This document shows, one piece after another, positions 3,721 through 60,999 of a DNA stretch of 64,000 nucleotides. The DNA is from Leucoraja erinacea. Taxonomy: Eukaryota. The first letter of the stretch is position 1. Each line of letters begins with the position of its first letter. The stretch lies in assembly GCF_028641065.1 (NCBI RefSeq), contig NC_073408.1:12152001-12216000 (forward strand), in the 5' to 3' direction. The notes under the pieces were generated by a model, which made no database searches, was not told where the DNA came from, and was given only the letters and a program-made list of their open reading frames with translations. Both the position numbers and the translations under genes were made by a program.

Positions 3721-4711
3721 TTCGAAGTATTTTCAAAAGTCTTTATTTTCCTTTAAGAATCACAGAATGGTTACTTGTACAGAAAGAGGCAATTTTCCAG
3801 TTCATATAATTAAAATGGAAATACCCTTAACAGTCAGAAATCATCAGTTCATGTGATAGGAGCGGAATTAGGCCATTCGGCCCATCAAGTCTAGTCTACC
3901 ATTTAAATCATGGCTGATGTACCACCAGTCGGCCAACAATCCAGCTCATCCCCTGACCCAATGTCTCCCCATCAATTTATTGATATAATTCAGGATAGGA
4001 AACCTACTAGCCTTACCTGGTCTGCCCTTTATGAGGCTCCAAATATCTGTAGAGAATAAAGTTGGATTAGTGCAAGAATAGTGTTAATAGCTGCTTGATG
4101 ACCAGCATAGATTAATTGGGTCGAAGAGCCCATTTCCATTTTCTTTGACTCTTCACCCACACCTAGGCGGTTGACTATTAATTGCTTCCTTAATTTAAGA
4201 GCAATATGTGATAGACAATCAACGCTGCCATTGCCAGCAATGACCACAGTCTGTGAATGAATAAATAGAATGGCAGCTGTATTATTTCCGGTGGATTAAT
4301 GCCACACTGAGAATTGAACTTGGCCGACCCCATGGTATCCCTGGAGCTCACACTGATAATGTTGTAATAGCATTTGACGTAAGTCTGTTTAGTGGTGCTT
4401 TAAGTCACAGGCAAGAGATATTCATAGATCAGAAATCACGGAATGGGAACAGGCCATCTATTCTGTGCTAACACCACTTAAAAATAATTTAATTCATCCC
4501 ATTCGCCAACACTTATCTACATCCCTGTGAATTGATTCATTTCAGATACTTTTAGATGTCCCGTACATCACTGCAATGGAATATGCAGGCACGGCCACTC
4601 ACGGCAATGCAATCCAAACTCTGACCACTCACTTTTATTTCATGCCGTTTGGCTCTTTTGGCTCCCAATGAAATACCAACCTTTCCATTGGTAAAGGTTA
4701 AGGTTTCATAA

Positions 4712-5493
4712 AGGGCTTTCCTACTGTGGCGACCTAATCTGCGAGTTAAGAAGAGTGTCTTCGACCTTCAAGCTCGAGGGCACTCGCTTGGAAAACCTCG
4801 AACTGGATCAACCGTCAGCGTTGAAACTGCGAGCTGGATCGACCGACCGCACACACACACACACAAACACATCGCAAAGGCGGGGGCCAGGGAAAGCGGG
4901 GGAGCGCTGTCTGAAATTCAGACCCGCGATGAAGAAGAAGGTAAAAGACGGCTGCACAGTGTTCGGTAAGTCCTTTAGAGAGCGCGGAAGGGGGGGGTGG
5001 GGGGAGAGAGAGAGAGGGGAGCGAAGGGGGGAGAATGGGGGGGGGGGGGGAGAGGGGGGGGAGAAAGGGGGGGGGGGATGGAGAGAAGGATTGGAGACAC
5101 TTTTAAGAAGTTTAATAAAGTTTAGCGGGCATTTTTACCTACCGGTCGGTTTTCCTTGGTCCTGAAAACTCCAATGAGCCAATCAAAATGAACGAGATTG
5201 CCTACGGCTGCCCTCGACTGCCTGTAACTAAATAGCGACCCCACTCCACTGCACTACGAGTTAAAAAGAACCATGCCGACCAAATTTTACTCGCGGAAAA
5301 ATTTTCATCATGCTGAAAATATTTCTGCCACTCCGCGGCCGCGAGTATTTGGGAACCTCCCCCGAGCATGAAGGAGAGTTCCAGTGACCTCATAGGACTT
5401 CCTACGACCACGTGTCGACCATGCTGCGAGTTTGAGTCGAGGGCAAACTCTTCTAAAGTCGCACATTAGGTCGCCGCAGTGAGACAGCCCCTT
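4712..5493. mobile_element. Non-autonomous DNA transposon (PIF/Harbinger-like MITE)
   Basis: ~45-bp imperfect TIRs (agggctttcctactgtggcgacctaatctgcgagttaagaagagt and its reverse complement), TAA on both flanks, internal (CA)n and G-rich tract. A second copy lies at 33015-33626. Confidence 0.75.
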
Positions 5494-5513
5494 TAATCTT
5501 TACCAATGGAAAT

Positions 5514-5850
5514 TACTTTTCCACGTATCTACATCTCCTCTTTTACACTGAGAGCAAACAGTTTTTCCAGTCTATCCATTTAGCCAGAATTCCCTTTTGC
5601 TGGAATCATTTGACGATACTCTCCAGAAACCTCTCCAAAGTCGTTACATCCTTCCCAAAGTATGATGTTCAAAATGAGAGACTAGACTTAATTTTGGCCA
5701 GAGCAGTCTTTCAAGATTCATTGTGACTTTCTTTCTTTTTAAAGCAGAGTACCAGTGTGTTATCTCAACCTATTCTGCTACATTTAATAAACCATGTACG
5801 GGTACCCCAAGTTTCTCGGCCTTTTACCCTTTTTTGAATTGTTTCCTGGA
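5514..5850 (-). mobile_element. Old CR1 LINE fragment (host of the MITE; 3' part at ~4425-4680)
   Basis: Reverse complement resembles the decayed CR1 RT C-terminus (...ctttggagaggtttctggagagtatc...atgattccagc). Confidence 0.5.
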
Positions 5851-6829
5851 GTTTAAAACTTACAATTTTATTTAGTTTAGTTTCATTTAGAGAAACAGTG
5901 TGGAAACAGGCCCTTCGGCCCACTGAGCCCGTGCAGACCACCTGTACACTAGTTCTATTCTATGGCTGATGCATTGACCTCAATTTCCAATTTATTAGTC
6001 CTGTGACCTACATTATTAATCACACATTGCCTAACAATTCACTGCACCACAAAGAAACTATCAAAATATGCTAATGACCAAGTTGCCGCAGCTGAAAATA
6101 TAATCAGCAATCATTGTTTCACAAGAAATATCTGTCAGTAATCAACTCGTTTGCCTTGGGTCTCATATATTCATTGTGTTGCATTTTATATAAAACAAAA
6201 AAAAAACAGTGGCTTACAAGCTATTTATCACTAATTTATACTTGTATATTGCAGTAAGACTAATGAGAACTATTTTTCTCTGCAGCAATCTTTGACAGAA
6301 TAGCTGTAATATTAATTTCAGTCCGCTCTTGGGATACCATGTGACAAATTGCTTCTTTATGGTCACCAAAGCGTTTTTATGCATTAGAAAAGAAGATCCC
6401 AACCCATAACGTCATCAATCCATGTTCTCTGGAAATGCCATTGGTTGCATGTATATGTTGGAAAAGGGCTTGTGTGAATTTTGCTAACAATCTGTAGAAG
6501 TAATTAAAGGAGTTTGGCGGTCTGAAGAAGGACAACTGGGGTTTCCAACTATTCAGAAGTTCGGTTTCCAGTACACTGGTTCTCTAGACACGTCTGGTCA
6601 CAACGGTGGCCAGCGCTGAACTAACGCGCGCAAGCAAAAACCGTGCGAAACAAGCAGCCCCTCCCGAGTCACGTGACCGCGGCTTCCCAATGCCGGGTTC
6701 GATCTCTGCGTGCGCTAGCAGGCGCCGCTAGGTAGGCAATTTTTTATAGCAATCGGCGTGCCAGCACTGCTAAAGCAGAGCTCAAGATTTTAGCTAATTT
6801 AGATGAATGAATCTAGCCAAAGAACCTTA

Positions 6830-7030
6830 CACCTACCATCAGTGGTAAGGATATGATTAGAACCATTTCTGAGGGAAAGAGTTAATCAGTATTTGGAGAG
6901 GCCGGAATTAATTGAGGATTATCAGCATGGTTTTGTCAAGGTGCAATCCAGTCTCCCATCCAATTGATCTGGATTGAATATTTTAAGTCGGTATCCATGT
7001 GTGTCGATGAGGACAGACAACATTTGTTGA
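6830..7030 (+). mobile_element. CR1 LINE RT fragment
   Basis: Translates to LEPFLRERVNQYLERPELIEDYQHGFVK, with the CR1 QHGF motif. Confidence 0.75.
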
Positions 7031-7944
7031 TGTCGGTGATAATTATAAAATTGCTTTTGAACCATGAAGTGGTGGGAAATTCCATGAGAAATTTATGTGA
7101 GAAACAATTAAACAGCCATTTGTGTGAAAACCATTTGCACGGTGTTTTCTGGACTAGACCTTCCTCGATATCAAAATCATATTGCTTGTGGTGGCTAACT
7201 AATATAAACTGGCTGAATAGTTGAACCATTTATTACCAGAGGACACTGGGAGCATGCAATACAGATGTAAACAGAATGCAATGCCTTATGACAAATATGT
7301 CTAACTCAATTGGAGTATAGGCAGAAAGCGGTCATTGTCTAGGGGTTGTAGATAAAGTATTTTTGCACTGGTCTCCCATGTGGGATTTTACCAGTGCTGA
7401 TTGAAGTCCACTTAGACTGCACAATCTGCAATGCCCGTCAAGAGATGTGCTTGCCTCGAACCTCTGTGATAGGGTGGTGTTGGACTCCTGTAATCTCTTA
7501 AACACTGAAGTTGAGCCATGCGACAGTTTGCCAATGCACCAAGTAATTATTAGCCTAGTATATAGGCTGTCTCATTGACATGCTCATTTGTGTGTGACCT
7601 TGCCTCCACCTCCACTCTCAACATACTGTCCTGTCTTCGGTATGGTCTGCTTGTGTCCATCTGGTGACTCACCCCCGTGAAAATCCTTCCTCCAAGCCAT
7701 TTCTGCACATTATCAAATACGCTGCAGGAAAAGTGAGAAAGACTGAATTATTTAGCGGCTTGGAGTATCAAATCAAGTGACGGAGTTTCTTCCTCACTAT
7801 TTAAACTTTGCTGGCTCGGACATCGTAGCTGTCTGGGAGGAGAGAGGCACAAGGGCATTATTATGGTGGGTGGAGAGTATAAAGCACACACTTACACCAC
7901 CTGCAGCTTGCAGGTTATGATGGTGGGTGGTATCATAAATAGCG

Positions 7945-8150
7945 TTATCCAAAGTAACAGCAGGATCTTGAGCAGTTGGGCAAGTGTGGTGGGGAATGGT
8001 TAATGGAGTTTAATGCAGATAAGTGCAAGGTGTTGCATTTTGGGAAGTCCAGCCAGTGCAGGACCTTCACAATGAATGGCAGGGCACTAGGGTGTGTGGC
8101 AGAGAAGAGGGATCTAGGAGTGCAGATAGATATGGTGGTCAAAAAGGATT
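7945..8150 (+). mobile_element. CR1 LINE RT fragment
   Basis: WLMEFNADKCKVLHFGK...EKRDLGVQI is a canonical CR1 ORF2 segment. Confidence 0.85.
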
Positions 8151-9104
8151 GTCACCTTGGTTGACAAGGTACATTGGGCAGGGGCTGATTTTAAAGGTGC
8201 ATTTGGCAGTATGGGAATACAATAATAAATCACTGATCTCAATCACACATGCATTACATCTAGGTACAGAGGCTTGACCTCCACAAACCTTCTACTGCCT
8301 CCTGGATTTGGTGGGCTTCCTGTCTTCCTGTAGTTTTCAGGCATTTGACCATTCGCTCTGCTGGTCTTTCTAGCGCAGTACTGAAAAATAAAGGAGCCCA
8401 TTCAATCCTGCAAATTTTGGCTGGCCCAATCACTGGCAAGTCAAAATAAGCTTTTGGACAGGTACTGTACATGGATAGGACATGTTTAGAGGGATATGGG
8501 CCAAATGCAGGCAGATTGGACTAGTGTAGATGGGGCATATTGGCTAGTGTGATCTAGTTGGGCCAAAGAACCTGTTTCCACACTCTATGACTTATGCTAA
8601 GACTCCTGGTGCACCTTCCCTTGAAGAACAATGTGTTAGACTCAAGTATTGGAAGCCAACTTTAAATGGATTAGTCAGTCCCCCCCCCCACTCCCACCCC
8701 CGAAGTCACCACCGCAATCAACAGCACATTCATGTTGACTGGCCTTGCAACCCTTGATTTAAAAAGTCTACATAAAATTGGAGACTTGTTTGCATCAGAT
8801 TAGGCAGGCACCTTCCAAGCTAAGATTCCTTTCAGAGGTCTTTTCATTTTGCTCACAATAAGCTTTATTTTGAAATTAATAATATTTCAGAAGTACTTTG
8901 GTTGGTAGTTTCCAAACCTGCAACATGGATGAACCTGCTATTCCTGTTGAACTAGTAGTGACCATTCAATGTTCGTTGATACAAGGTGTTCGCTCACCTC
9001 AAATTATGGTGATAGTTAGGTTGAAAAGGAAGCTTGAGTAACAGCTGGTGAGAACTGGACCTAAAACAATTAATGTATCGTTCAGTATCACACTTCCTCT
9101 CCTA

Positions 9105-10189: not shown

Positions 10190-10490
10190 TTTTTAGTTTA
10201 GAAATACTGCGCGGAAACAGGCACTTCGGCCCACCGGGGCCACTCCGACCAGTGATCCCCGCACATTAACACTATCTTACACCCACTAGAGGCAATATTT
10301 TACATTCACCAAGCCAATTAACATACAAACCTGTACATCTTTGGTGTGTGGGAGGAAACCGAAGATCGCGGAGAAAACGCATGCAAGTCACGGGGAGAAC
10401 ATAAAAACAGCGTCTGCAGTTGGGATCGAACCCAGATCTCCGGCGCTGCATTCGCTGTAAGGCAGCAACTCTACCGTTGTGCCACCGTGA
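10190..10490 (-). mobile_element. HE1-like V-SINE, near full length
   Basis: tRNA head (gggttcgatccc B box), V-domain and CR1-like tail with (ctaaa)n end. Confidence 0.85.
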
Positions 10491-10682: not shown

Positions 10683-10823
10683 GTGTAGGAAGGAACTGCA
10701 GATGCTGGTTTCGAAGATAGACATAAAATGCTGGAGTAACCTAGCAGGACAAGCAGCATCTCTGGAGAGAAGGAATGGATGACGTTTCGGGTCGAGACCC
10801 TTCCTCAGACTGGTCAGCAGTCT
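10683..10823 (-). mobile_element. Penelope-terminus-derived short element nested in an older related palindromic element (~10567-10965)
   Basis: 13-bp TSD gatcaggcagcat at 10670-10682 and 10824-10836. Contains an intact hammerhead-like core on the minus strand. Confidence 0.75.
10781..10808 (-). ncRNA. Putative minimal type I hammerhead ribozyme motif
   Basis: Reverse complement: CTGAGGA-A-GGGTC-TC-GACCC-GAAA-CGTC. Has CUGANGA and GAAA boxes, stem II, palindromic ACGU stem III and a GUC cleavage triplet. Stem I is weak. Confidence 0.55.
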
Positions 10824-12102: not shown

Positions 12103-12412
12103 TTTAGATTTTACGTTGGAGCTACAGTGCGGAAACAGTCCCTTCGTCCAACTGAGTCCACACCGACTAATGATCAGCCCGTTCACCAGTACTATCCTAC
12201 ACACTAGGGACGATTTACAATTTTACCGAAACTAATTAACCTACAAGCCTGTACATCTTTGGAGTGTGGGAGGATACTGGGGCACCCGAAGAAAACCCAT
12301 GCGGTCAGGGGGGGGTGAACATAAAACCCTGTACAGTCAAGACACGCAGTCAGGATCAAATCCAGGTCTGTGGCGCTGTAAGGTAGCCACTCTACCATTG
12401 CATCACTCTGGC
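12103..12412 (-). mobile_element. HE1-like V-SINE
   Basis: Same head, V-domain and tail as the other copies. Confidence 0.8.
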
Positions 12413-12624
12413 GTCTAATCTATAACAGAATGATTTTCAAAAAAAAAAATCTTTATTAGCAAATAAAAAGTTAAAATGTTTTTTTGTGGCACGTGGGAGC
12501 CAATTTGTAAGATATTCTGGTCGGATATACCAAGAGAGGTTTTCTGAGCATATTTAGCAATTATAGCAAATTAAGAAGAAATCTGATGAGTAAATTTGAG
12601 TGCATGATGAACAGTCAGAAAATA

Positions 12625-13112
12625 GCGTCCGCTGCTCTAGATGTCAGCAGATCTATATCGGTGAGACCAAGCGGAGGTTGGGCGATCGTTTCGCCGAACA
12701 CCTCCGCTTGGTCCGCAATAACCAAGCTGACCTCCCGGTGGCTCAGCACTTCAACTCCCCCTCCCACTCCGCCTCCGACCTCTCTGTCCTGGGTCTCCTC
12801 CATGGCCACAGCGAGCAGCACCGGAAATTGGAGGAACAGCACCTCATATTCCGTTTGGGGAGTCTGCACCCCAGGCATGAACATCGACTTCTCCCAATTC
12901 TGTTAGTCCTTGCTGTCTCCTCCCCTTCCTCAGCTCCCCTGCTGTCTCCTCCCACCCTCCAGCCTTCCGGCTACTCCTCCTTTTCCCTTTCTTGTCCCCA
13001 CCCACCCCCACCCCTGATCAGTCTGAAGAAGGGTTTCGGCCCGAAACGTTGCCTATTTCCTTCGCTCCATAGATGCTGCTGCACCCGCTGAGTTTCTCCA
13101 GCTTTTCTGTGT
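12625..13112 (+). mobile_element. Penelope-like retroelement, 5'-truncated (GIY-YIG endonuclease part plus 3' terminus)
   Basis: RCSRCQQIYIGETKRRLGDRFAEH...PVAQHFN...LEEQHLIFRLGSLHP is a PLE GIY-YIG domain. 15-bp TSD aacagtcagaaaata at 12610-12624 and 13113-13127. Confidence 0.92.
13023..13050 (+). ncRNA. Putative minimal hammerhead ribozyme motif in the Penelope 3' region
   Basis: CTGAAGA-A-GGG-tttcgg-CCC-GAAA-CGTT. PLEs are known to carry minimal type I hammerheads. Confidence 0.55.
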
Positions 13113-13914
13113 AACAGTCAGAAAATACATGTAGCGATGCTTGGTTCTGAAAAGGGATCGGGTACTTCCTATCAAGGTTTAGGTTTATTATTGTCATGTG
13201 CACCAAAGTACAGTGAAATGCTTTGTTTGCATGCTATCCAATCAAATCATGTGATACTATACATAAATGCATCCAGGCCAAACTCAAGTGCAACAAGCAG
13301 AGTGAAGGGAAAGATACAGAATGCAGAACAATGGATAATCGAGGGCAAGTGATGCCAGATCTGCCCAGATGATTACGCAGTCTAAGAGATGCATGTAAGA
13401 TAAGAGAACATCTGGCTGAATGGAGGAAAAAAAACATGAAAATGGAAATAAAAAGGGCAAAGGCACAGTGTAATAACTAAGATAAAGGGTCTCTAGGCCT
13501 TCAATAGTGGTTTGCCTGAGGACCGATGAGGATAATTAGGTTTCAACCTGGCGGTTCTTTAGTGGGGATATGAAGCACAGCTGAGGCTTTAGATAAGGAC
13601 CGTGTTTTAGGAAGAGGGTGAAGTGGGTATTAGGTGATTTGATAAGATAAACATTGGCTGGACATGGGTGTAACAGTGGAGAAACGAAAACCATTATCAC
13701 CAGATAATCAGTTTGGTGGGAAAGCGTTCGGGTACATCATTCAGGAAGAACATAAACAGTCAATTAAATATGCGCAGCCCAATAAAGAAGTTCTACTACA
13801 GATGTATTGAAGGGAAATTAGGCTTGGTTGAATTAATTGCTGTCAAGATAAATGAGAATTTAAGAGATAATGTAATGGATGTGGACTTCCCAACGACTTT
13901 TGATAAAATAACGA

Positions 13915-14400
13915 ACCAAGAAAGCACACCAACCCCTCTACTTCCTTAGAAGGCTTGGGAAATATGACAAGTCCCCGGCAATTCTCACCAGCTTCTGCAG
14001 ATGCACCATAGAAAGCATTTTTATCAGGATTCATCACAGCTTGGTTTGGGAACAGACCCATCCAAGACCGCAAGAAATTGCAGCAAATTGTAGTCGCAGC
14101 ACAGACCATCACTTAAACCAACCTTCCTTCCATTGACTCCATTTATACTTCACGCTGCCTCGGCAAGGCCAGCAGCATAATCAAGGATACCCTGGCCACT
14201 CCCTCTTCTTCCCCCCTCCCATCAGGCAAAATGTATAGAAGTGTGAAAACGCACGTTGTCCAGATTCAGGGACAGTTTCTTCCCAGCTGTTATCAGGCAA
14301 CTGAATCATCCTACCACAACCAGAGAGCAGTGCTGACCTACTATCTACCTCAGTTGTGACCCTCGGACTATCCTTGATTGGACTTTGCTAGCTTTACCTT
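13915..14400 (+). mobile_element. Rex1/Babar-like LINE 3' fragment (3' UTR resumes at 16079-16195)
   Basis: KKAHQPLYFLRRLGK...CRCTIESI...ITAWFGN...DRKKLQ. Collinear with the minus-strand copy at 61925-62426. Confidence 0.85.
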
Positions 14401-14636
14401 NNNNNNNNNNNNNNNNNNNNNNNNNNNNNNNNNNNNNNNNNNNNNNNNNNNNNNNNNNNNNNNNNNNNNNNNNNNNNNNNNNNNNNNNNNNNNNNNNNNN
14501 NNNNNNNNNNNNNNNNNNNNNNNNNNNNNNNNNNNNNNNNNNNNNNNNNNNNNNNNNNNNNNNNNNNNNNNNNNNNNNNNNNNNNNNNNNNNNNNNNNNN
14601 NNNNNNNNNNNNNNNNNNNNNNNNNNNNNNNNNNNN
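14401..14636. other. Assembly gap
   Basis: Run of N. Confidence 1.
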
Positions 14637-15867: not shown

Positions 15868-16058
15868 NNNNNNNNNNNNNNNNNNNNNNNNNNNNNNNNN
15901 NNNNNNNNNNNNNNNNNNNNNNNNNNNNNNNNNNNNNNNNNNNNNNNNNNNNNNNNNNNNNNNNNNNNNNNNNNNNNNNNNNNNNNNNNNNNNNNNNNNN
16001 NNNNNNNNNNNNNNNNNNNNNNNNNNNNNNNNNNNNNNNNNNNNNNNNNNNNNNNNNN
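15868..16058. other. Assembly gap
   Basis: Run of N. Confidence 1.
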
Positions 16059-21942: not shown

Positions 21943-22446
21943 GGTACCAAATAGGCATCACACAATAGTCTGGTTGTATATTTTCCACTGATCTTAAGTG
22001 TTCTCAAAAATTTCAAAGCATTTTGAAGGTAGTTTTAGTTTTTAATAAACTTTGTGAATCGTTCTTAATGGAGAAAATCTTCTGTTTGGCCTAAAATCAC
22101 TGCCTGTTTTCTGCCAAGCTGTTTATTCCAGGTTGGCCCCTCGTGTGGTCTTCTATTGAAGGTCTGTCACTAACACTACAGCACGGCTGTGTGTAACCTC
22201 GGAGCGAGCAGCCGCTGCTCATACAAAATAGATCCATGTCAATGTTACGATGCCGAGTTTGTTTTAGGTTTCTGCATCTCTGTCTTTGATTTCAGAATGT
22301 CCAACATTGCCATTGAGATTGGTTTTGTGTCTGGCAATTAGAGCTACTTCTGTGTGACTGTGCCAATTAGGACTGACTGGCATTAATTTCTGGAGTTTCT
22401 GAACTTCCACTGTTAATGTATACCTTTTCTCATTTTGTTTGTGTAG

Positions 22447-22593
22447 GTCGGGCCAGTCTATATGACAAGGCATCGTTGCGAATCGACCAGCTTCACTCAG
22501 AGGACCAGGGATGGTATGAGTGTAAGGTGCTTATGTTGGACCAGCAATACGACACATTCCACAATGGCAGCTGGGTATACGTCACAGTGAATG
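22447..22593 (+). CDS. igsf9b: Internal coding exon of IGSF9B (protein turtle homolog B), C-terminal half of Ig domain 1
   Basis: Translates as (G)RASLYDKASLRIDQLHSEDQGWYECKVLMLDQQYDTFHNGSWVYVTVN, with the Ig D-x-G-x-Y-x-C motif, and closely matches vertebrate IGSF9B as I recall it. Acceptor: pyrimidine tract plus gtgtAG (22445-22446). Donor: GTGAGT at 22594. Length 147 nt, phase 1-1. Confidence 0.93.
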
Positions 22594-24444
22594 GTGAGTA
22601 CCACCATGTTATACCTGCCAGAATATGCCACAGTTGACAAGCCCTGCAAGAGATCTCCATTACAATTTGCCAGTAAGGGAATAACATCCAGCAAGGCCAA
22701 AAAGGAACATATGTAACTCACATTTGACATGGATTTGGTTCAGTTTTACATGTATATTTGACATATCCAAACTTTGCAATGAAAACAGCAGTTGGGTTGA
22801 TAAGCAGGAATCAATAATTGTCATTAAAAAAATATATTTTTTAATTATCCTGGTTTATGCACCCGGTCAATCACAGTCAATTATATTACAATTTAAAAGA
22901 TAACACTGGCTATTGGTATGGATTTTCTGTTCAGGAATTTCAGTCATCGGTATCAGTTTATTTGTCATGAAACCTGTTGTAGAAACATGATGTCACTGAA
23001 TTAATGAATTGATAGATTATGAAGCGTAAGTAAATCTAAACATGTTTCATTTCTAATGTCTTTCTTCGATCACATTCAAATTGTCTGGTTGATTTAGTGA
23101 ACTTCCAGTAAATATGTAATGAGGAATTCAGTGGAGGAGGATTGGTTCATGTTGTTTGTGCTTGATTACATTGTATCAACTAGCTGATCAGTGCTTGTTT
23201 TATCCAACCTGATTTTTGATCCAGTTTGAATCAACAGCAGTCCATGAATGTCCAGAATGAATCAGTTCCCATGCAGTTGCTGTTATAACCCATGGAGCCA
23301 TGTGTTGAATGTGCGTGTAGGTGCTACTCATACTGAGGAATAATCTAAATATTAACAATGCTGGGTACCTTATGAGATATTTGGAAAATAGGAGGATGTA
23401 ATCCTGGTGTCCGGGCCAACATCTAATATTCAAATCACATGTGGCATCTCATAAATGGCTGCTGAGTCCACTGCATTACAACTGCGACTACATTTCACCA
23501 CTGCAAAAGGGCTTTGATAAGCTAAGATCGTAAGAAGCATTTCTGCATATAAATGCAAGTCTGTTATTTTGCAGTAAGTGTTATAATATAAATCGTTTGA
23601 CATTTTATATAAATGGCTGGTATTCTCCCTATTCATTTAGGCACCTGCTGTGGCAAGTATAAGCCCTGGCCTATGGCCAGTAATCTTGGTGTAAGCATTT
23701 GTCACGTTGTTTCACAGTTTACTGTGTTCACTGTACAGTTAAATTGACAAAATGACACCAGAATCTATCTGGACACAAAATGCTGGAGTAACTCAGTGGG
23801 ACAGGCAGCATCTCTGGGGAGAAGGAATGGGATTCCGGCCAGAATCTATCTTCCTCATTGAAATTCAGTCCAACCATTTAGAGAGAATATTGCCATTGTT
23901 TCAGATGAACCTGTCCAGGGGAAATATTGTTTGATATTGAAAATGCTAATCAGGTTATAAAATCTCATTTTAGAAGCAGCAAGCAGTGATGGTTCATGTA
24001 AAATTTAAATGGGTATTCTCGAGGTGCTGTGTCTTTCTTCATCACAACACTTAGTAGCTTGACCTGTGTAGGGCAGATTTTTAGTAACATGTCCCTTCAC
24101 TGCGCAGTCTTCCCTTCCAGTTCAATGAGCAGAAAGCCTTTTCTTGCAAGTGGCAATTTCACTCGCTGAGTTCAGGAGAAGAAAAGAAACCGGCATGTCA
24201 CGAGACGCAATTCTGAGCAGTTACAGCTAAACATTACACTGTGCATTGGGCTCGGACACACTGTGCTTTCATTAGGCACAGTATCACCACACTGCAATGA
24301 ATGCCTCTGATCATGAAATTGATCAGATCTGTTCATCCACCAGATGAGCTTTGTGGAAAGGAATGCAGCTCCTTTTCAAAGCAAATTGAAACAGCCACTG
24401 ATTCAGGCAAATAACCTATCTTAGCACCAACTAGAGAGACGAGA

Positions 24445-27240: not shown

Positions 27241-28139
27241 GCTCTCTGTGTGCAAGTAATTGATGACATAGCAGGAAAAGTAAGGTTTTCGAGATCTGAA
27301 TGTGCATGGCAAAAACTATTTATATCCCAAAAATGGAGTTTGCGATATCAACGGGGGAATGCAAGTTGGAAAGTTCAATGTTAAATAAAGGCCAACATCA
27401 AAGCTGAAAGAAAAATGAATAGAGAGAAAGGATGATTGTTTTAAAGGAAAGAAAACAAAAGGCACGCAGGCAGACCTTTATTGTAAATATTTAATTTGAA
27501 CTTTTAAAAATTTCTGACAGCATTTAAAACTTGAAGGACTACGTTAATTGGAAGTAACTGATGTAGATCATTTTGTTAAAAGAATAATACACATGAAATG
27601 ATGAGCCTGCTACAGTGGGATTAGTTCAGATCAACACCTGCGGCTACTATTCAATGTTTAGTGGGTTTCATTGGTGAAGCCAAAGGTAAGGGACCACTTT
27701 CACAAAGTTAACTGGGGCAGCAATTGACTATTTAATGCAGCTGTCCCTCCCTCGAAGCTGGGTGTTATTGGCATTGAAGTAACAGTGAGGGAAACTGGCA
27801 AGAGGCTAGGCCCATTCATTGGCAAGAACCTTTGCTGCATCACAGTAAATTAAGTCATTTAGCTGGATTGTGTTCACATTAACAATTCAGTTCCCTGCTT
27901 AAATTGAATACAAGTCTTGTGGTTCATTTTGGTACAGATTCAAAAACGGAATACTTCTTCTATGCCTGGCTCTACTTGTTGGCTGTACTCAATAGTTACA
28001 GGACAATAGATTACAGAAACAAAGAACTGCAGTTGCTGTTTTACAAAAAAAAAACACCCAAAACTCAGGTCAGCAAACTTTGAGAACTTGGATAGGTGAC
28101 ATTTCAGTTGGGATCCTTCTTCAGTCTTATTGTTGGGGG

Positions 28140-28331
28140 CGGCTGTCACTCTACTCAACAACGTACCTCGGTGACTGCCAATCACCACCCCCCCCCCGGA
28201 CACTTATTATTATTTATTCAAATCGTTTGCTATGTCGCTCTTCAAGGGAGATGCTAAATGCATTTCGTTGTCTCTGTACTGTACACTGACAATGACAATT
28301 AAAATTGAATCTGAATCTGAATCTGAATCTG
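28140..28331 (+). mobile_element. LINE 3' tail (Rex1/Babar-like) ending in (AATCTG)n
   Basis: gcatttcgttgtctctgtactgtacactgacaatgacaattaaa plus tandem aatctg, flanked by a long direct repeat. Confidence 0.6.
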
Positions 28332-28611
28332 AGGTCCACATCTTTTGAGAACTTGGATAGGTGACATTTCAGTTGGGATCCTTCTTCAGTCTTATTGTTG
28401 GGGGGGGCTAGAAAGTTCGAAGAATAAGATAGGTTATTTTCATGGAACAATCAAAGGCCATACCAGAGTAAAGAGGTCACGGCCTTTTATCCTTGCTAGG
28501 TCAGTCAGTGCACATGCATGAGGGAGCAAGATGCGTCGTGCTTTTTCTGTGCTTTGGTATTCAAGCAATAAAAAAAAATTGGATGGACAAACATATTAAT
28601 AACCTTTTATG

Positions 28612-29014: not shown

Positions 29015-29774
29015 CAATAGACAATAGACTATATGTGTAGGAGTAGGCCATCCGAGCCAGCACCACCATTCAATGTGATCATGGCTGATCATCCACAATC
29101 AGTACCCCGTTCCTGCCTTCTTTCCATATCCCTTAACTCCACTATCCCTAAGAGTTCTATCTAACTATCTCTTGAAAGCATCCAGAGAACCAGCCTCCAC
29201 CCCCCTCTGAGGCAGAGAATTCCACACACTCACAACTCTTTGTGTGAAAATATTTTTCTTCATCTTCGTTCTAAATGGCTTATCACTTATTCTTAAACTA
29301 TGGCCCCTGGTTCTGGACTCCCCCAACATTGGGAACATGTTTCCTGCCTCTGGCATGTTCTAACCTTTAATAATCTTATATGTTTCAATAAGATCCCCTC
29401 TCATCCTTCTAAATTCCAGAGTATACAAGCCCAGCCGCTCCAATCTATCAACATATGACAGTCCTGCCATCCCAGGAATTAACCTCGTGAACCTACGCTG
29501 CACTCCCTCAATAGCAAGAATGTCCTTCCTCAAGTTTGGAGACCAAAACTGCACACAATATTCCAGGTGTGCTCTCATTAGGGCCCTGTACAACTGCAGG
29601 AGGACCTCTTTGCTCCTGTAGTCAACTCCTCGTGTTATGAAGGCCAATATGCCATTCACTTTCTTGACTGCCTGCTGCACCTGCATGCTTACTTTCAGTG
29701 ACTGATGAACAAGGACCACCAGATCCCGTTGTACTTCCTCTTTTCCCAACTTGACACCATTTAGATAATAATCT
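29015..29774 (-). mobile_element. CR1/HER1 LINE nested in opposite orientation
   Basis: QRDLVVLVHQSLKVSMQVQQAVKK...LEYCVQFWSP...RRMRGDLIETYKI, with the tail microsatellite at 29015. Confidence 0.92.
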
Positions 29775-36744: not shown

Positions 36745-37390
36745 TTATAGAGTCATACAGCATGGAAACATTTGTTATGGAAACTTCGGCTAACTTGCCC
36801 ATGACGACCAAGATGTCCCATCTATGCTAGTCCCACCTGCCTGCATTTAGCTTTTCCTTTCCTTTCCATGTGCCTGTCTAAATGTCTTTCAAATGCTGTA
36901 ATAGTACTTGCTGCAACTACCTCCTCTGGCAGCTCATTCCTTATTCCCACCACCCTCTGCATGGAAAAGGTTACCCCTCGGGTTCCTATTAAATCTTTCC
37001 CCTCTCAGCTTAAACCAATGACCCCCGGTTCTTGATATCCCTACTTTAGGTAAAAGACTGTACATTTACCCTATCTATTCCCCTCATGATCTTATACACC
37101 TCTATAATATCACCTTGCATCCTCCTATGCACCAAAGAATAAAGTCCTAGCCTGCCCAACCTGTCTCTATAGCTCAGGTCCTCAAGTCCTGGCAACATCC
37201 TTGTTGATCTTCTCTGACCTGTTTCCAGCCTAACAATATCCTTCCAAGAGCAGGGCGACCAAAACTGAACACAATACTCCAACTGTGGCCTCACCAATGT
37301 CTTGTACAACTGCACCATCACATCCCAACTTCTATACTCAATACCCTGACTGGTGAAGGCCAATATTCCAAAAGCCTCCTTATCACCCTA
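36745..37390 (-). mobile_element. CR1/HER1 LINE fragment
   Basis: QGIEYRSWDVMVQLYKTLVRPQLEYCVQFWSP...GDIIEVYKIMRGIDRV plus 3' UTR. Confidence 0.9.
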
Positions 37391-38689: not shown

Positions 38690-38861
38690 AGGAAGGAACT
38701 GCAGATGCTGGTTTACACCGAAGATATGCTGGAGTAACTCAGCGGGACAGGCAGCATCACTGGAGAGAAGGAATGGGTGATATTTCGGGTCAAGGGGGTC
38801 TCGACCCAAAACGTCACCCATTCCTTCTCTCCAGAAATTGTGCCTGTTCCGCTGAGTTACT
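38690..38861 (-). mobile_element. Palindromic Penelope-terminus derivative (second subfamily)
   Basis: Inverted arms ggagtaactcagcgggacaggc...aaggaatgggtga / tcacccattccttctctccag...gctgagttactcc. Degenerate TSD ccacc(t/a)at(t/g)aagatgtgt at 38672-38689 and 38862-38879. Confidence 0.75.
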
Positions 38862-38964
38862 CCACCAATGAAGATGTGTGGTTTCTGCAGGTCCGTAATA
38901 ACCTGGTTGAAAAACTCTACTGATTCCAGATGCAATCAGGTTCAAGCAGTTAACAAATAGATAG

Positions 38965-45117: not shown

Positions 45118-45503
45118 TAAGTCCATTCTTTTTCCATGGCAACAAGAAGGTGGATACCACTTTAGCATCAGGTGATCAGGAGCAGGAAGGAAGTCTCATG
45201 ACAAATGTTTATTTTCTATTTTGCACTTTACGTCTATCTTGATTTGCCACATTTTGCTGTGAGGTTATTTTTAATTTGGAATTTTCGATGTTGTTCAGTT
45301 ACATTTTTTTTCCAGGAACTGTTTTCCCATTACACCTGTTCCCTGTTTCAGTTTCTTGCTATGTCCATCACTGATGTTGCACAAGGTATCCATCTATGTC
45401 AGTGAGCACTGAGTGCATGTATGAATTTGAAGAAGAGAATAAAAAATTGTTCTTGTAAAACTGACAAAGTTATCATCAAACAGCGTCTGTCAAGAGGACC
45501 AAA

Positions 45504-45692
45504 GGACATAAAGTGCTGGAGTTATTCAGCAGGTCAGGCAGCATCTTTGGAAAAGATGGATAGATGTACACTTATCCATACCTCTCCCCTGATTCTCAGT
45601 CTGAAGAAGCATCTCAACCCGAAACGTCACATATTCTTTTTCTCCAGAGATGTTGCCTGACCCGCTGAGTTACTCCAACACTTTGTGTCTAT
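45504..45692. mobile_element. Palindromic Penelope-terminus derivative, decayed
   Basis: Inverted arms with the remnant ctgaagaa...cccgaaacgtc core at 45601-45628. Confidence 0.7.
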
Positions 45693-46781
45693 CCGTGGAC
45701 ACAAAAGAACCATTCTATTTCACAGTAGGGACACTACAGTAGTGCTTGGAATGGACAATGGTGAGAAACGTGCAGTAGGAGAGTGCACATTTACAAATTC
45801 ACGCCAAACCATACTCTGGGGGAAAGTAAGGGTTGTGTGTCTACGCTATTCTAAGCACTATTTGTGGACCAGATGTTGCAGTCAGTGTAGTCAGAATAAT
45901 TGGTGAATTGACCTATTCCCAGTATCGATGTTTCCTTTCCCTTCCTGAGAGGCACAATTATAACCCATAACAGCATGAGAAAGTCCCTTGGAAAGAAGTG
46001 TCATATTTCTGCATGGATCAGCCATTAGTTTATTGTGGTTATTAGTGCCCAGATGATAACAACATGTATCCAATCATAGCTGCTGAGGAAGCTAACTAAC
46101 ATTTTATTAACTAAGAGTCACTAGTCTGGTGTAAATTTCAGCCCCTGCTGTGGGACTGTTAAGCTTCAATACCTTGTCTAATGAATACGAAGGCACCTGC
46201 CAAGGCAGTCAAAGACTTTGGACGCATTCATTATCTCAACACTCATTACTGCGGGGAGAAATCATAGCAAGGTTAAACTGCACTCGTTTTACTGTGTGCT
46301 TGTGGTTCCATGTGCCGACACACAGATTTGCCTGTTCTATTTTCTGCTGCCTTTGCAGCTTGATACACTTGCTGAAGGTTAAACCAAGGAGAATTAGTCC
46401 CTCACACTGACTATACATATATAAAGCTTTTATTCCAGTGTTGAATGCTCAATAAAATTGATTTTCTGTAAACCTGGAAAATGCCTCCATCTGAAAGCAC
46501 GCAGACACATCTGGTTTAAAAGCTGAACTGGTGACTTTTGAATTGCAGAGGTAAATGGTGTCTTGAAACGGGCTGCTTTTATGTGCAATACCTTTGGTCT
46601 TCCAAATTAGCGGAGATGCTGAATGACTTTCATTTCAATGTCAAAATTACCTCCACTTCATTGAAAGAAAATCTTCTAAGGACTTAGTTTGTGAATTAAA
46701 TTTGTTGGAATATTGAACCACACATATTCAGGATGGTCCTGAGTGCAAACATTTTCTGAGCACATAAAGAAAAGCTATTAA

Positions 46782-49184: not shown

Positions 49185-49403
49185 TTATCCCAACTAACCA
49201 TGATCTTTTCTACATGTTCCTTGATCTCCATTCCCTTGATCATGTGTTCACACCTTACACTTCCTTATCTATACACTTCCTTATCTACCCACTCGCCTGA
49301 CACCAGTCTGAAGAAGGGCCTTGATGCAAAATGTCACCCATTCCTTCTCTCCAGAGATGCTGCCTATCCCGCTGAGTTACTCCAGCATTTTGTGTCTATC
49401 TAC
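49185..49403 (+). mobile_element. Penelope-like 3' terminus (second subfamily), decayed
   Basis: cagtctgaagaaggg...gtcacccattccttctctccagagatgctgcc...gctgagttactccagcattttgtgtcta. Confidence 0.65.
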
Positions 49404-49795
49404 GAAGTTATCATGATCAATGGAGAAGTCTTCCCAGAACTCACGTGTAGCTTCCAGGTTTGGGCCTGTGTCCTAATGATCTTAGTGTGATGGTCTCATG
49501 ATTGAGTAAGCCATAGAGATGTGGGGCATCCACCAAATTAACAGGGGGTCACTGAGATATCAGACTAGATCATTCATGATGGCAAAAACAGTGTTCTCTT
49601 TCCAATTCATCCCTCCAAAGGAAAGTATCTCCATTGCCTTGCTCGTTAAACCAGCCATCAGGCTTTTGAATGTAGCATCTCAATGCATCAATGCACCAAA
49701 ACAATGCAAAGGCTTAATTGAATGATATTAATAAATGAATAAAATATTATAATTCGCTGAGGCCAATGCGCCGGGGGCTTTGGGGGACTTTGACT

Positions 49796-52278: not shown

Positions 52279-53021
52279 CAGCATGAATCAATTGAGATAT
52301 ATTTTCGTGATTAGTAAGATTATATTTATGGAACATGATGGGCATTAATACATATTCCTCATCCTCTGCCCATTGGTAAGAGCCAGTTGAACCTGCATCT
52401 GCAGTTTTAATTCTGATAGGATTGGAACAAGCACGAAACTGGGAATCCACCAATCTCTTGGGCCTCATTACATGTTCTGATACTTCTCTCTGTCTGTTCC
52501 TGTAGAAATTAAGTCACTGATCGCTGGAGGGAATGGAAATATAGAACTCAGGAAGCCATGCTTAGACCATTAGGTTTGTTCCACAGCTTGGAAGAAGGGA
52601 CAGGTTGTGTTTGAACCAAAGAACAAAGTTGGCTAGTGGAAGGGGAACTTTCTTGTGAAGATTACTTCTATTCCTTTAGCTTCACAATGAACCTATAAGA
52701 CTATAAATAAAACGTGATTTATGTACATATCCTGTGGCCAATAAACTTGAGTTGTGGGTTTGAGATTGTGTCCCATGATTAAAGTGTTGTGAGAATTCCT
52801 ACAGGCAACAGTTCTTAGTGAGACAACCACAAAGTGATCCCAATTTCAGATTTGCCCAGACAAAGGATGTACCCCTTGCTTTATTCTGCAGTAATAATTT
52901 CATCCCCACCTCCCGTGAAATTACTATTTGTCCATTGGACAACTACATGGTTCTACATGACAACTACAACCAATTCATTTATTATCTTTCCTGATTTGTA
53001 ACCAACATACCTAAATGACAT

Positions 53022-53203
53022 GGTACTCAAAAATGCTGGAGAAACTCAGCGGGTGCAGCAGCATCTATGGAACGAAGGAAATAGGCAACGTTTCGGCCCA
53101 AAATTTCCTATTTCCTTTGCTCCATAGATGCTGCTGCACCCGCTGAGTTTCTCCAGCATTTTTGTGTACCTTTGATTTTCCAGCATCTGCAGTTCCTTCT
53201 TAA
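53022..53203 (+). mobile_element. Palindromic Penelope-terminus derivative
   Basis: Hairpin arms centred on tttcggccc. TSD ataccta(a/g)atgacat at 53007-53021 and 53204-53218. Confidence 0.85.
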
Positions 53204-54785: not shown

Positions 54786-56109
54786 CATTACCATCAGAAT
54801 TTCTCTGTCGAAAATAGGGACATTTGCATAATTGTCTATTATTTGCTTGATTGGAGCTCTACTGGATTGCATTATCCATATGCATGCAGAGGAAGGAGTT
54901 TACTGCAGGGTTTGTCCTGATTTCAGGTCTTCTTGAAGTCTTGTTCAATGCAATCTGTGCAGCCTCCACCATTCACAAACTCCAGGCTCCATTCTATCCC
55001 CATCTGGCTCAGTTCATATTATTCAATCATTTGGCCAGCATGTACAGTGAAGCCTCGTGAAATGAATGATTTATTGGCCTTTCATTGGGCAGTGATGATA
55101 GAATGACATCAGTGAACACAGAGTCACATTTAGGCAAACTAATTAAGGTTGGCAGACTTCCTTCTTTAGTGATCTGCGTGGATTTTTACCTCAGTCCTGT
55201 AATTTTTTTGGCTACCTATACTTCGGCCAGCATTTCACTCCAGGTTTAAATTCTGCAGCGACCATGGTGGGATGCAAACATACTACTTATTTGTCAGTTT
55301 CTTCACCTCTCGTCTTTGGAACCATGGCATAACACCACTTTGTCTTTCTATCTCTCCATAAATGGGAGGCATTTCATCCTTGTTTGCCAGCTTCATCGCA
55401 TGCCAAAGTCAATAAAACCAAAGTGTGGAAACAAAGCACACTTCACACGTACAAGCACCCCTGTATTGCTCATTCTTTGCCACCCTCTGAGAACCGCATT
55501 GCTTGTTCAATTTGATCCACTGTTTCCTGCTGGACATGACTATTTTTTTACCCAGTCCCCGATACATTCGCTGCTCAATTTCCTTGTTTCTCCCATAAAG
55601 AGAGTGCTGCAATATTCTTCACACTGAGTTCCATGTGGATTATCTTGCTCAGTGCCAGAGTAAGTTGTAGGTAACTGCAATTTGTTAGGCTACGCTTTGG
55701 TAGAATTCCACAGCCACTTCAGCTCATTTCATGTCTGATTTGCTGAAAAACAAGAATTTCAGAAAAAGATGCTACTGAAACATGAAAAGTGAGAGTTTTT
55801 CTTTGTAGCATGGCTGGAAGTGACTTAGCATTAAGCTTTATGTCTGCTCTTGCAAGCACCAGTGCTGGAAACTTAGAGTGATCTTTTCCACATCAGGGAA
55901 ACTCAATGAAGCTGTTCCACCCCATTCAGCAACCACTGTGCTGAGCCACACTGGGAATTACCAGCAGTTTGGCTGCAAATGCTTGATATTTTTCAAGTTC
56001 ATGACTTGGCACATGCATTTTCCAACGCAAAAGTACTGAACTGCTGACAGATTCCAACCAACAAATTGCAATTCAATCTAGATCAGCCAAACAGAGCAAG
56101 AATATTATT

Positions 56110-56202
56110 TAGACACAAATGCTGAGGTAACTCAACGGGTCAAGCAGCATCTGGCGAAAAATGGATGGGTGACGTTTCGGGGTCAGAACCCTTCATCAGA
56201 CC
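56110..56202 (-). mobile_element. Penelope-terminus fragment with hammerhead-like core
   Basis: Reverse complement of 56171-56199: CTGATGA-A-GGGTtctgACCCC-GAAA-CGTC. Confidence 0.6.
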
Positions 56203-57352: not shown

Positions 57353-57539
57353 TGTTTAAGAAGGAACTGCAGATGCTGGAAAATCGAAGGTACACAAAAA
57401 AGCTGGAGAAACTCAGCGGGTGCAGCAGCATCTATGGAGCGAAGGAAAAAGGCAACGTTTCGGGCCGAAACGTTGCCTTTTTCCTTCGCTCCATAGACGC
57501 TGCTGCACCCGCTGAGTTTCCCCAGCTTTTTTGTGTACC
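57353..57539 (-). mobile_element. Palindromic Penelope-terminus derivative, young
   Basis: 76-bp inverted arms (57388-57463 and 57465-57540) with 2 mismatches. 14-bp TSD tcctacacataata at 57339-57352 and 57540-57553. Confidence 0.9.
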
Positions 57540-58176
57540 TCCTACACATAATAGTCTGGTGTGCACTTATGCATACTTCAGCAGGAAACATTGGATCAAA
57601 TTTAACAAGCATTGCCGTTCTCACAGGGTGGCAGCATTTTCATGAGTTGCGCATAAAATGTTCACAATTCAATGCTTGAGAGTATGGCCAGCTGATCCAG
57701 TTTGTGGGCATGAGTTTATCTGTTGATTTTTATGTTTGACCCTGGTTGTAACCGTTTCAGATACTGTCATTATCAGAAGCAACTCACAATTGTTCAAAAT
57801 AAAGTTTTCAGTTACTTATATGACTATTTTGCACTGCATCATAGAAAAAGCATTCCTTCCCTACTGTGCACTGAAGAGTTCGCCTGGAGCCATTTGAGTC
57901 TGAACTTAATTATGATGTGTGCTTGCGGATATAAACATCAACACCCACTTCTGTTAATGTGGCATCTACAGCTTTGCAAAAATAAACCTTGGTGCTTCAC
58001 AGGAACATTATCAAACAAATAAATTGGCACCAGACCATATATTAGAGCGCATGATTAAAGTATCAGGAAGAGAAATAGTTCTGGGAAGATTTTCCAGAAT
58101 AAAGAGCCTTGCACTTTTGCCAATTGTGGCACAATTAAGCTTAGAGATATTCTGGAGTCCAGAAATGGAAGGTTTG

Positions 58177-59523: not shown

Positions 59524-60060
59524 TTAGAGAGCAGATTCATAATGTATTTGGGGGACCTACTTCAGCAAACAGCAATCAAACTGGGGACCCACTGCAACAT
59601 CTTTGGACACTGCAACATCCTTCGGTGCAGCCCTGAATAGTGGGAGAGCAGATTCAAGTCAGGAGGTAAATATGACTGTATGAAACTTTCACGATGGCTT
59701 GATCAGCAATGACTAACTTTGAAAGTCCAAATCTAAACTGCAGATATTGTAAATCTGAAATAAAAACAGATGTGTTACCAGCATTTCCTACGTATTGCAT
59801 AGTTGTTCTGAGATTAGTTCTTTTCTTTCCAACTGATTGCAACATCTGCTGTAAACCATCACAATCATTTTAAATATTAGCTTTTTTAAGCGCACATTTC
59901 TGTAAATTATCTTGATATATTTAAGAGTGGCAACATTAATTACTAACTTTTGTTCATGCAACTAAAAATGGATTTACCAAAAAAAGAAATACTCAAAAAA
60001 CCTGGTGAAGGTGCTGGAGGTAGATGGTTTGCTGCAAGCCAGCAATTGAATTGTTCATGG

Positions 60061-60260
60061 ATACTAAAAGCTGGAGTAACTCAACGGGACAGGCAGCATC
60101 TCTGGAGAGAAGGAATGGGTGATGTTTCGGGTCGAGACCATTCTTCAGGGCTGAAACGTCACCCATTCCTTCTCTCCAGAGATGCTGCCTGCCCTGCTGA
60201 GTTAATCCAGATTTTTTGTGTCTACCTCCAGTTTAAACCAGCATCTACAGTTCCTTCCTA
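60061..60260 (+). mobile_element. Palindromic Penelope-terminus derivative (second subfamily)
   Basis: Inverted arms caggcagcatctctggagagaaggaatgggtga / tcacccattccttctctccagagatgctgcctg, with terminus cagcatctacagttccttcc. Confidence 0.75.
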
Positions 60261-60729: not shown

Positions 60730-60916
60730 TGTTTAAGAAGGAACTGCAGATGCTGGAGAATTGAAGGTACACAAAAAAGCTGGAGAAACTCAGCGGGTGC
60801 AGCAGCATCTATGGAGCGAAGGAAATAGGCAATGTTTCGGGCCGAAACGTTGCCTATTTCCTTCCCTCCATAGATGCTGCTGCACCCGCTGAGTTTCTCA
60901 AGCTTTTTTGTGTACC
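60730..60916 (-). mobile_element. Palindromic Penelope-terminus derivative, young
   Basis: Near identical to 57353-57539. Direct repeat accaactatctttcacag at 60712-60729 and 60914-60931. Confidence 0.9.
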
Positions 60917-60999
60917 AACTATCTTTCACAGCCTGACCACACTGAATCGAATTCCTAGCACTGGTCTGAAACCTTCATTCTGGGTTACACAGACAAAGA

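What the first reader, a model, noticed from the sequence alone, without database searches (positions are those of the whole stretch)
13023..13050. Hammerhead ribozyme motif in the terminus of an elasmobranch-type Penelope-like element, recurring across subfamilies
Seen: downstream of the GIY-YIG frame lies CTGAAGA-A-[GGG tttcgg CCC]-GAAA-CGTT. The same architecture, with a different stem II but conserved core boxes, recurs at 25885 (+), 10781-10808 (-; CTGAGGA-A-GGGTC-TC-GACCC-GAAA-CGTC) and 56171-56199 (-; CTGATGA...). Decayed versions lie at 28098, 28362, 45601, 49308 and 60121. Known: PLEs carry minimal type I hammerheads with a palindromic stem III thought to cleave as dimers, and an extra nucleotide after A9 is tolerated in a natural viroid hammerhead. 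Inference: conserved core boxes with a variable but still pairing stem II suggest selection on ribozyme structure. The plus-strand copies are in the sense orientation of the igsf9b pre-mRNA. Stem I is only ~2 bp, so monomer activity is doubtful.
Basis: partly seen in the sequence, partly recalled or inferred. Interest (0 to 1): 0.7.

Follow-up and report, generated by a model that had tools for sequence, protein, structure and literature searches.

The report
Penelope retrotransposon end with minimal hammerhead
This is a known kind of miniature self-cutting RNA motif (hammerhead) in the end repeat of a known kind of jumping gene that has left about a million stubs in this fish genome; most young stubs begin just before the motif and run through its predicted cut site, so they were likely copied from uncut RNA.

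Summary
The motif at 13023-13050 is real. It is a minimal type I hammerhead in the pseudo-LTR of a young, Neptune-type Penelope-like element (PLE), a class described by Cervera & De la Pena 2014.

A full-length relative carries two direct hammerheads 4,143 nt apart around an RT/GIY-YIG region.

Selection on structure is modest. Across seven subfamily majority sequences the core is invariant (0/11 positions vary, tail 17/61, p≈0.04-0.06) and all changes are structure-compatible, but none is double-compensatory.

The useful by-product concerns copy ends. Of 98 young copies, 45 begin within -7..+4 of the core's first base and none at the predicted cut site, so templates were likely uncut, with an RNA 5' end just upstream of the ribozyme. 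RNA reads from a related species show no cleavage ends or splice joints.

This scan has already reported the same family and reading on other DNA of this genome. Known kind; low-to-moderate interest.

The parts
12625..13115 (+). 5'-truncated, frameshifted copy of a young Neptune-type PLE (end of GIY-YIG endonuclease + pseudo-LTR without the optional tail)
   Evidence: 98-99% identical to the 40 best genome-wide matches scored; weak GIY-YIG Pfam match E=0.052; flanked by a target duplication
12610..12624 (.). Left copy of a 15-bp target-site duplication (right copy 13113-13127, overlapping the element end by 3 nt)
   Evidence: read from the sequence
12904..12906 (+). Stop codon of the RT-endonuclease ORF as in intact relatives
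13018..13023 (+). Initiator-like TCAGTC and hot spot of copy 5' ends; inferred RNA 5' end near 13020-13022
   Evidence: 45 of 98 young copies begin within -7..+4 of C3, mode -2; Inr consensus recalled
13021..13052 (+). Minimal type I hammerhead: core box 13023-13029, extra A 13030, stem II 13031-13034/13039-13042 with tetraloop, GAAA 13043-13046, ACGU palindrome 13046-13049, predicted cut 13050/13051, 2-bp stem I 13021-13022/13051-13052
13051..13115 (+). Post-cut segment ending at the first inferred RT start site (+90..+95); a second class of ends near +130 defines the tail
   Evidence: 3'-end clusters; tail = segment between two RT start sites in PMC11167929
25577..25975 (+). Second EN+pLTR copy, related subfamily; hammerhead at 25885 with CpG-decayed G.U in stem II
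   Evidence: 83% identity to the 13023 copy
10685..10812 (-). Short copy of an older subfamily, hammerhead at 10808, with tail
56107..56201 (-). Short copy, hammerhead at 56199, begins at about -2
57356..57546 (.). Fold-back (head-to-head) pair of element ends centred in the hammerhead stem II region; near-perfect hairpin of about 72 bp
   Evidence: z=-23
60733..60931 (.). Fold-back pair centred in stem II
53020..53203 (.). Fold-back pair centred in stem II
45502..45698 (.). Decayed copy (motif 45601) with an inverted partner
49304..49409 (+). Decayed copy (motif 49308, G12 lost at a CpG)
60056..60260 (.). Head-to-head pair including the decayed motif at 60148 (-)
28018..28392 (-). Two decayed copies of an old subfamily (motifs 28124 and 28389)

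Best explanation
The motif is the minimal type I hammerhead in the pseudo-LTR of a recently active Penelope-like retrotransposon, likely kept by selection in the source elements, predicted to cut only weakly (as a dimer or with the element's protein), and likely uncut in the RNA that was copied into the genome, so that this copy and most of the roughly one million stubs would be inert passengers. Shown: the element context, the two direct hammerheads in a full-length copy, core invariance across subfamilies, and the position of copy ends. Inferred: RT starts internally about 65 or 100 nt past the cut site, reads through the intact scissile bond and most often runs off an RNA 5' end 1-3 nt upstream of the core (likely a transcription start at an initiator-like TCAGTC). 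That yields 95-135-nt stubs with target duplications, or fold-backs at the motif's own palindromes. Cutting, where it happens, would trim read-through or tandem transcripts at another stage and is not needed for insertion.
For: Full-length locus L057: inverted pLTR piece + pLTR + 3.6-kb unique region + pLTR + tail, hammerheads 4,143 nt apart, pLTRs differ at 4 of 537 sites. RT (PF00078, E=3.5e-7) and weak GIY-YIG in the open ORF of L056. 217 near-complete copies clustered on the tail alone give 7 subfamilies (5-20% diverged). Core 0 of 11 variable vs tail 17 of 61 once CpG decay is discounted. All 6 variable hammerhead positions are loop, wobble or H17 changes (rough p=0.007). 5' ends of 98 young copies chosen only by a downstream motif: 45 at -7..+4, 18 at +5..+24, 0 at +25..+31, 34 further upstream, 1 at +34. 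Older subfamily: 19 of 30 at -9..+1, 1 at +29. Genome sample: 16 of 464 at +25..+31 vs 13 and 17 in the adjacent 7-nt bins. 18 of 52 non-inverted copies examined have 9-18-bp target duplications. Monomer stem II pairing probability 0-0.14 in the contexts folded. PMC11167929 (text read): an anole PLE hammerhead cuts only with protein, is dispensable for insertion, and RT starts internally at two sites.
Against: No cleavage was measured. No double compensatory change exists among subfamily majority sequences, and core vs tail is borderline (two-sided p=0.056); parts of the tail are just as invariant. Re-ligated or circular RNA would also leave the bond intact. The TSS is inferred from DNA junctions only. 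In D. virilis Penelope the TSS lies 46 bp upstream of an intron whose end meets helix I, a different layout. The 98 copies come from the first 16 Mb of one contig, include both arms of inverted pairs, and several of the 13 ends at -120..-8 are alignment artefacts of subfamily variants.
Confidence: 0.75

Rival explanations
1. The hammerheads cut and re-ligate to a circular unit RNA of about 4.1 kb (Cervera & De la Pena model); RT copies the circle, so the bond looks intact and more-than-unit copies arise. The 5'-end hot spot is then an RT stall just before the C-rich tract.
For: L057 is more than unit length (upstream pLTR begins about 400 nt inside the EN). Two direct hammerheads lie in one read-through RNA. 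A C-rich tract lies directly upstream of the hot spot. Model proposed in PMC4209133.
Against: No leak of linear cut templates is seen (0 of 98 at the cut site). Extra junction nucleotides end in G in 5 of 7 cases, as a capped 5' end would give (small number). In vitro, unprocessed RNA was the main substrate for the anole element.
Confidence: 0.15
2. The CAG just upstream of the core is the 3' splice site of a pLTR intron (as in D. virilis Penelope), and the copy 5' ends mark a splicing-derived boundary.
For: Older subfamilies have GT at the ORF stop, a variable pyrimidine-rich 100-260-nt stretch and CAG before the core. Poly(A) read depth over that stretch is 12-28 vs about 100-190 over the EN. 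Precedent in PMC4209133 and PMC2377424.
Against: No GT..AG joint was listed in either read lay (lower-support joints were not shown: 176 and 19). None of the short young copies listed has the EN end joined to the core. The young subfamily has a poor donor. The depth drop can come from subfamily divergence.
Confidence: 0.07
3. The motif is a catalytically dead relic conserved for another reason (promoter, RT or endonuclease binding), not as a ribozyme.
For: 2-bp stem I; competing folds win in predictions (alternative hairpin probability 0.85 on the 33-nt motif); no compensatory pairs; tail blocks are also invariant.
Against: Invariance matches the catalytic boxes, and the variable sites are exactly loop, wobble and H17 positions. 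Homologous PLE motifs cleave in vitro.
Confidence: 0.1
4. Intronic copies such as 13023 cut host pre-mRNA and regulate the Ig-domain gene.
For: Some copies are on the host strand; about 44,000 core-intact motifs exist genome-wide.
Against: No strand bias in the window (12 plus, 15 minus). Copies decay at CpG core sites like neutral DNA. No read-end pile-up (fragmented libraries of a related species, a weak test). 13023 is not shown to be inside the gene.
Confidence: 0.03

Closest known systems
Minimal type I hammerheads of metazoan PLE pLTRs (Cervera & De la Pena 2014, PMC4209133; parts 1-2 of 4 of the text read, supplements not opened)
   Same: In both pLTRs; no helix III loop; palindromic 15.2-16.2; extra nucleotide between 9 and 10.1; G10.1-C11.1; mostly solo or opposite-strand pairs; reported in fish Xena, Poseidon and Neptune.
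   Different: Stem II is 4 bp and stem I only 2 bp (7-8 and 4-5 bp in S. mansoni); copy number about 44,000 intact vs 4,000-9,000 in coelacanth and Xenopus; cartilaginous fish are not named in the parts read.
Poseidon PAc of Anolis carolinensis (Frangieh et al. 2024, PMC11167929; parts 1-2 of 4 read, Fig. S2 is an image and gave no text)
   Same: Two internal RT start sites giving the optional tail; hammerhead not needed for insertion; no reads ending at the cut site.
   Different: Poseidon clade, whose ORF starts in stem II; here a linker Zn finger is present and the first ATG of the ORF lies about 135 nt past the cut site. A 5'-end hot spot at the ribozyme edge is not described in the text read.
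Neptune-clade EN+ PLEs (Craig et al. 2021, PMC8557442 and preprint; passages read)
   Same: C-terminal GIY-YIG, CX2-5CxxC linker finger, DKG motif, partial tandems, inverted 5' copy, 30-40-bp tail.
   Different: Unusually long proline-rich N-terminal region with short tandem repeats; clade not confirmed by a tree.
Dimer-cleaving small hammerhead variants of PLEs (Lunse et al. 2017; not held, known only through the review PMC6765202 passages and recall)
   Same: Reduced stem III, PLE association, predicted dimer.
   Different: Could not compare sequences or rates.
Non-LTR retrozymes (bioRxiv 10.64898/2026.07.22.740005; part 1 and passages read)
   Same: PLE-derived, type I hammerhead, found in one chondrichthyan.
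   Different: Retrozymes are tandem arrays; these are dispersed stubs with their own target duplications, or head-to-head pairs.

Membership tests
Minimal type I hammerhead of PLEs | Core boxes CUGANGA and GAAA with UH | tested here: met
   invariant in 7 subfamily majority sequences after CpG correction
Minimal type I hammerhead of PLEs | Stem II with G10.1-C11.1 and an extra nucleotide after A9 | tested here: met
   4 bp plus tetraloop, extra A at 13030
Minimal type I hammerhead of PLEs | Palindromic 15.2-16.2, no helix III loop | tested here: met
   ACGU at 13046-13049
Minimal type I hammerhead of PLEs | Helix I (4-5 bp in the described families) | tested here: inconclusive
   only 2 bp in all subfamilies; present but shorter, like the 2-bp D. 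virilis variant
Minimal type I hammerhead of PLEs | Compensatory covariation | tested here: inconclusive
   one-sided wobble changes only among majority sequences; not above shuffles on window copies
Minimal type I hammerhead of PLEs | Located in both pLTRs of a PLE | tested here: met
   L057
Minimal type I hammerhead of PLEs | Self-cleavage as dimer or with protein | not testable with these tools
   needs an in vitro assay
Rfam hammerhead families | Covariance-model match | tested here: not met
   no hammerhead family among 36 matches at E<=10
EN+ Penelope-like element | RT followed by C-terminal GIY-YIG in one ORF | tested here: met
   (GIY-YIG below the Pfam cut-off, motif visible)
EN+ Penelope-like element | pLTRs, inverted 5' copy, optional 30-40-bp tail | tested here: met
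Neptune clade | CX2-5CxxC Zn finger between RT and EN; CCHH; DKG | tested here: met
   linker CX4CX2C, CxxC between the GIY/YIG halves and DKG seen in translations; the linker finger is shared with Nematis
Neptune clade | RT phylogeny | not tested
   no reference PLE proteins fetched
Non-LTR retrozyme | Tandem non-coding units each with a hammerhead | tested here: not met
   dispersed or head-to-head copies linked to a coding element; only occasional local tandem duplications

The most novel reading that the evidence does not exclude
The element's RNA starts 1-3 nt before the hammerhead core, so the ribozyme caps the very 5' end of the transcript. Most genomic stubs are run-off ('strong-stop'-like) cDNAs from the internal RT start, and full-length copies with an upstream pLTR reaching into the endonuclease are made when that cDNA jumps to the downstream pLTR. 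A million insertion junctions would then record a retrovirus-like strand transfer in PLE replication and show in vivo that the ribozyme is silent on the template.
Probability: 0.35. Interest if true: 0.6.

Novelty: new member of a known kind. Interest (0 to 1): 0.3.

Why it matters
The ribozyme class and its link to PLEs are published, so the motif itself is ordinary. What PLE hammerheads do, and how pLTRs are rebuilt, is still open (PMC8557442 preprint passage; PMC11167929). This young, very abundant family offers a large natural record: copy ends avoid the cut site and pile up at the ribozyme's 5' edge. That supports in vivo the single in vitro report that uncut RNA is the template, and gives a sharp, cheap prediction for 5'-end mapping. 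It also makes up about 4% of the sampled genome and leaves many perfect hairpins in introns.

Tried and rejected
- Rfam scan: no hammerhead hit; the miRNA-family hits are fold-back PLE ends.
- Stem II covariation on the window copies: not above shuffles. Apparent double changes occur in a single old locus (L078) and at CpG sites, where two-step decay mimics compensation.
- Splicing of a pLTR intron, with possible re-shaping of stem I: no GT..AG joint listed in two read lays on runs of a related species; joining the exon end would not lengthen stem I (by inspection).
- Cleavage signal in RNA: no begin/end pile-up, but libraries were fragmented poly(A) or single-cell, with 1-5% of each RNA run read, so this is a weak test. 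No listed holder of the stretch was on record as RNA.
- Longer stem I or a stable hammerhead fold: predictions favour other pairings in monomer and co-fold (one-core dimer -10.2 vs best co-fold -25.0 kcal/mol); the motif folds no better than shuffles (z=0.28).
- A second, distant PLE lineage with its own hammerhead: none found in 1.63 Mb of fetched DNA.
- DPE at the spacing expected from a start at -3: off by about 3 nt (by inspection), not used.
- Literature: Lunse 2017 not held. Searches hammerhead ribozyme+Penelope+shark (1 paper, only the 'shark head' simile), hammerhead ribozyme+chondrichthyan (0), Penelope-like+strong-stop+reverse transcription (1 unrelated listing) and Penelope+hammerhead+uncleaved+pLTR showed no report of this family's copy ends. 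The library lacks most subscription papers, and the Cervera supplements, which I did not open, may list a cartilaginous fish.

Full report
Positions written as +n or -n are relative to C3 of the hammerhead core (window 13023 = 0); the predicted cut lies between +27 and +28.

1. Observation. The motif is at the stated place, and so are the other copies. It finds 31 in a 1-Mb sample of 100 hand-spaced 10-kb stretches from 20 contigs, against 0 in each of three Markov-2 controls. A tight core-intact pattern has 44,344 exact matches genome-wide and its reversed control none. A profile of the repeat end finds 27 pieces in the window and 464 in the 1-Mb sample (4.3% of its bases), which extrapolates to about one million (a first, narrower profile gave 412). 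Rfam has no hammerhead match at E<=10. Stem II is best drawn as 4 bp closed by a UUCG, CUCG or CCCG loop.

2. What it is. The 13023 copy (12625-13115, 15-bp target duplication, frameshifted near the ORF end) is 98-99% identical to the best-scored genome matches. [quoted passage not shown] Locus L057 is full length: an inverted pLTR piece, a 537-bp pLTR, 3.6 kb of unique, frameshifted coding region, a second pLTR and tail, with two direct hammerheads 4,143 nt apart. Head-to-head pairs are common (85 in the 1-Mb sample). Several window hairpins are such fold-backs centred on the motif's own palindromes. This is the arrangement described for PLE minimal hammerheads in PMC4209133 (parts 1-2 read).

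3. Is the structure under selection? Copies of one repeat are not independent, so I clustered 217 near-complete copies (of 491 pieces) on the tail only and compared 7 subfamily majority sequences, 5-20% diverged; one 3-copy cluster was dropped. Two apparent core changes in the oldest clusters are CpG decay, since both CA and TG products are present. With that correction 0 of 11 core positions vary against 17 of 61 tail positions (Fisher p=0.04 one-sided, 0.056 two-sided). The six variable hammerhead positions are two loop bases, three wobble swaps and H17; my rough chance estimate is 0.007. There is no double compensatory change. On the 10-row window alignment the covariation score is reached by 170 of 500 shuffles, although the pairing (87%) collapses when partners are slid. 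Selection on the fold is thus likely but not proven by covariation. Folding predictions give stem II a probability of 0-0.14 in the young subfamily, where an alternative hairpin buries the GAAA box. This fits weak, assisted activity.

4. What copy ends show. I took young copies by an exact motif that lies wholly downstream of the cut site (16,710 matches) and fetched 90 loci around the first 100 listed, giving 98 distinct copies. Their 5' ends: 21 at -121 or beyond, 13 at -120..-8 (several are alignment artefacts), 45 at -7..+4 (mode -2), 18 at +5..+24, 0 at +25..+31, 1 at +34. An older subfamily gives the same picture: 19 of 30 at -9..+1 and 1 at +29. In the genome sample there is no excess at the cut site (16 of 464 vs 13 and 17 in adjacent bins). 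Of 52 non-inverted copies examined, 18 have 9-18-bp target duplications abutting the start, often with microhomology; 5 of the 7 with extra nucleotides end in G. 3' ends cluster near +90..+100 and +125..+130, matching the two internal RT start sites and the tail of PMC11167929. Inference: RT starts inside the RNA, crosses an intact scissile bond and usually stops 1-3 nt before the core. The simplest cause is a physical RNA 5' end at an initiator-like TCAGTC (consensus recalled). This would also explain why stem I is never longer than 2 bp. A stall before the C-rich tract, or a re-ligated circle, is not excluded. L057's upstream pLTR reaches about 400 nt into the endonuclease, so full-length copies need a template jump, a tandem transcript or a circle.

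5. RNA data. Reads from a related species cover the motif deeply, in both directions alike in the poly(A) runs, mostly with loose flanks, as expected for stubs inside host transcripts. No place where many molecules begin or end was found, and no GT..AG joint was listed for the young or an older subfamily. The intron idea suggested by GT/AG boundaries and by D. virilis Penelope is therefore unsupported here; these libraries cannot show cut ends well.

6. Host gene. One Ig V-set exon lies on + near 22.4-22.6 kb (1 V-set hit among 113 plus-strand and none among 117 minus-strand frames scanned, of 257 listed). Its likeness to IGSF9B is recalled, not from a call. Pieces of the repeat are 12 plus and 15 minus in the window, so there is no sign of an effect on the gene.

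7. Known or new. The ribozyme type, its PLE location, its dimer logic and its low activity are published, and an anole PLE study found cutting protein-assisted and dispensable for insertion. My searches showed no description of this family or of the 5'-end hot spot, but Lunse 2017 and the Cervera supplements were not seen. This scan has 39 earlier notes fitting the same family in this genome, of which 8 were shown; several reach the same uncut-template reading. I had reached it before that call (note) and took the 'strong-stop' wording and the strand-transfer idea from e1-9854223. Those notes are not independent evidence.

Verdict: real, a new member of a known kind, interest 0.3. The most novel reading (RNA start at the ribozyme edge with run-off cDNA and strand transfer) has probability about 0.35.

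Noticed in passing
window 57356-57546, 60733-60931, 53020-53203, 40649-40811, 38688-38896: Fold-back pairs of the element end form near-perfect 60-75-bp hairpins that Rfam scores as plant or animal miRNA precursors below threshold; possible dsRNA or editing substrates in introns.
   Followed up: partly
window 13071-13078 (+48..+55) with tail +109..+116 in L057: An 8-bp helix joins the post-cut region to the tail (pairing probability 0.8-0.9) and both arms are invariant across subfamilies; candidate RT-binding or initiation structure.
   Followed up: partly
window 12902-13021; L132:1417-1524: Older subfamilies have GT at the ORF stop and CAG before the core, with a freely varying pyrimidine-rich stretch between; intron-like, but no splice joints were seen in reads.
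   Followed up: yes
L057:4965-5297: The N-terminal part of the PLE ORF holds in-frame short tandem repeats (about 30 nt, proline/glycine/aspartate-rich) of variable number between copies.
   Followed up: no
L078:3853 and L078:5162: Old duplicated copy with A-U at the first stem II pair and U-A at 15.2-16.2; may be an older lineage with true compensatory changes, or CpG decay.
   Followed up: partly
L252: Tandem pair in which the first copy runs on about 110 nt into the unique ORF start before the next copy begins at -1.
   Followed up: no
window 22377-22634 (+): Single Ig V-set exon (PF07686); no other Ig exon found in the window by motif scan.
   Followed up: partly
window 13912-14133, 29363-29815, 37049-37387, 62128-62553: Fragments of other retroelements (LINE-like ORF ends, one with an ALKBH8_N match) and tRNA-type SINE-like repeats near 10190-10490 and 12110-12410.
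   Followed up: no
window 14401-14636 and 15868-16058: Two runs of N.
   Followed up: no
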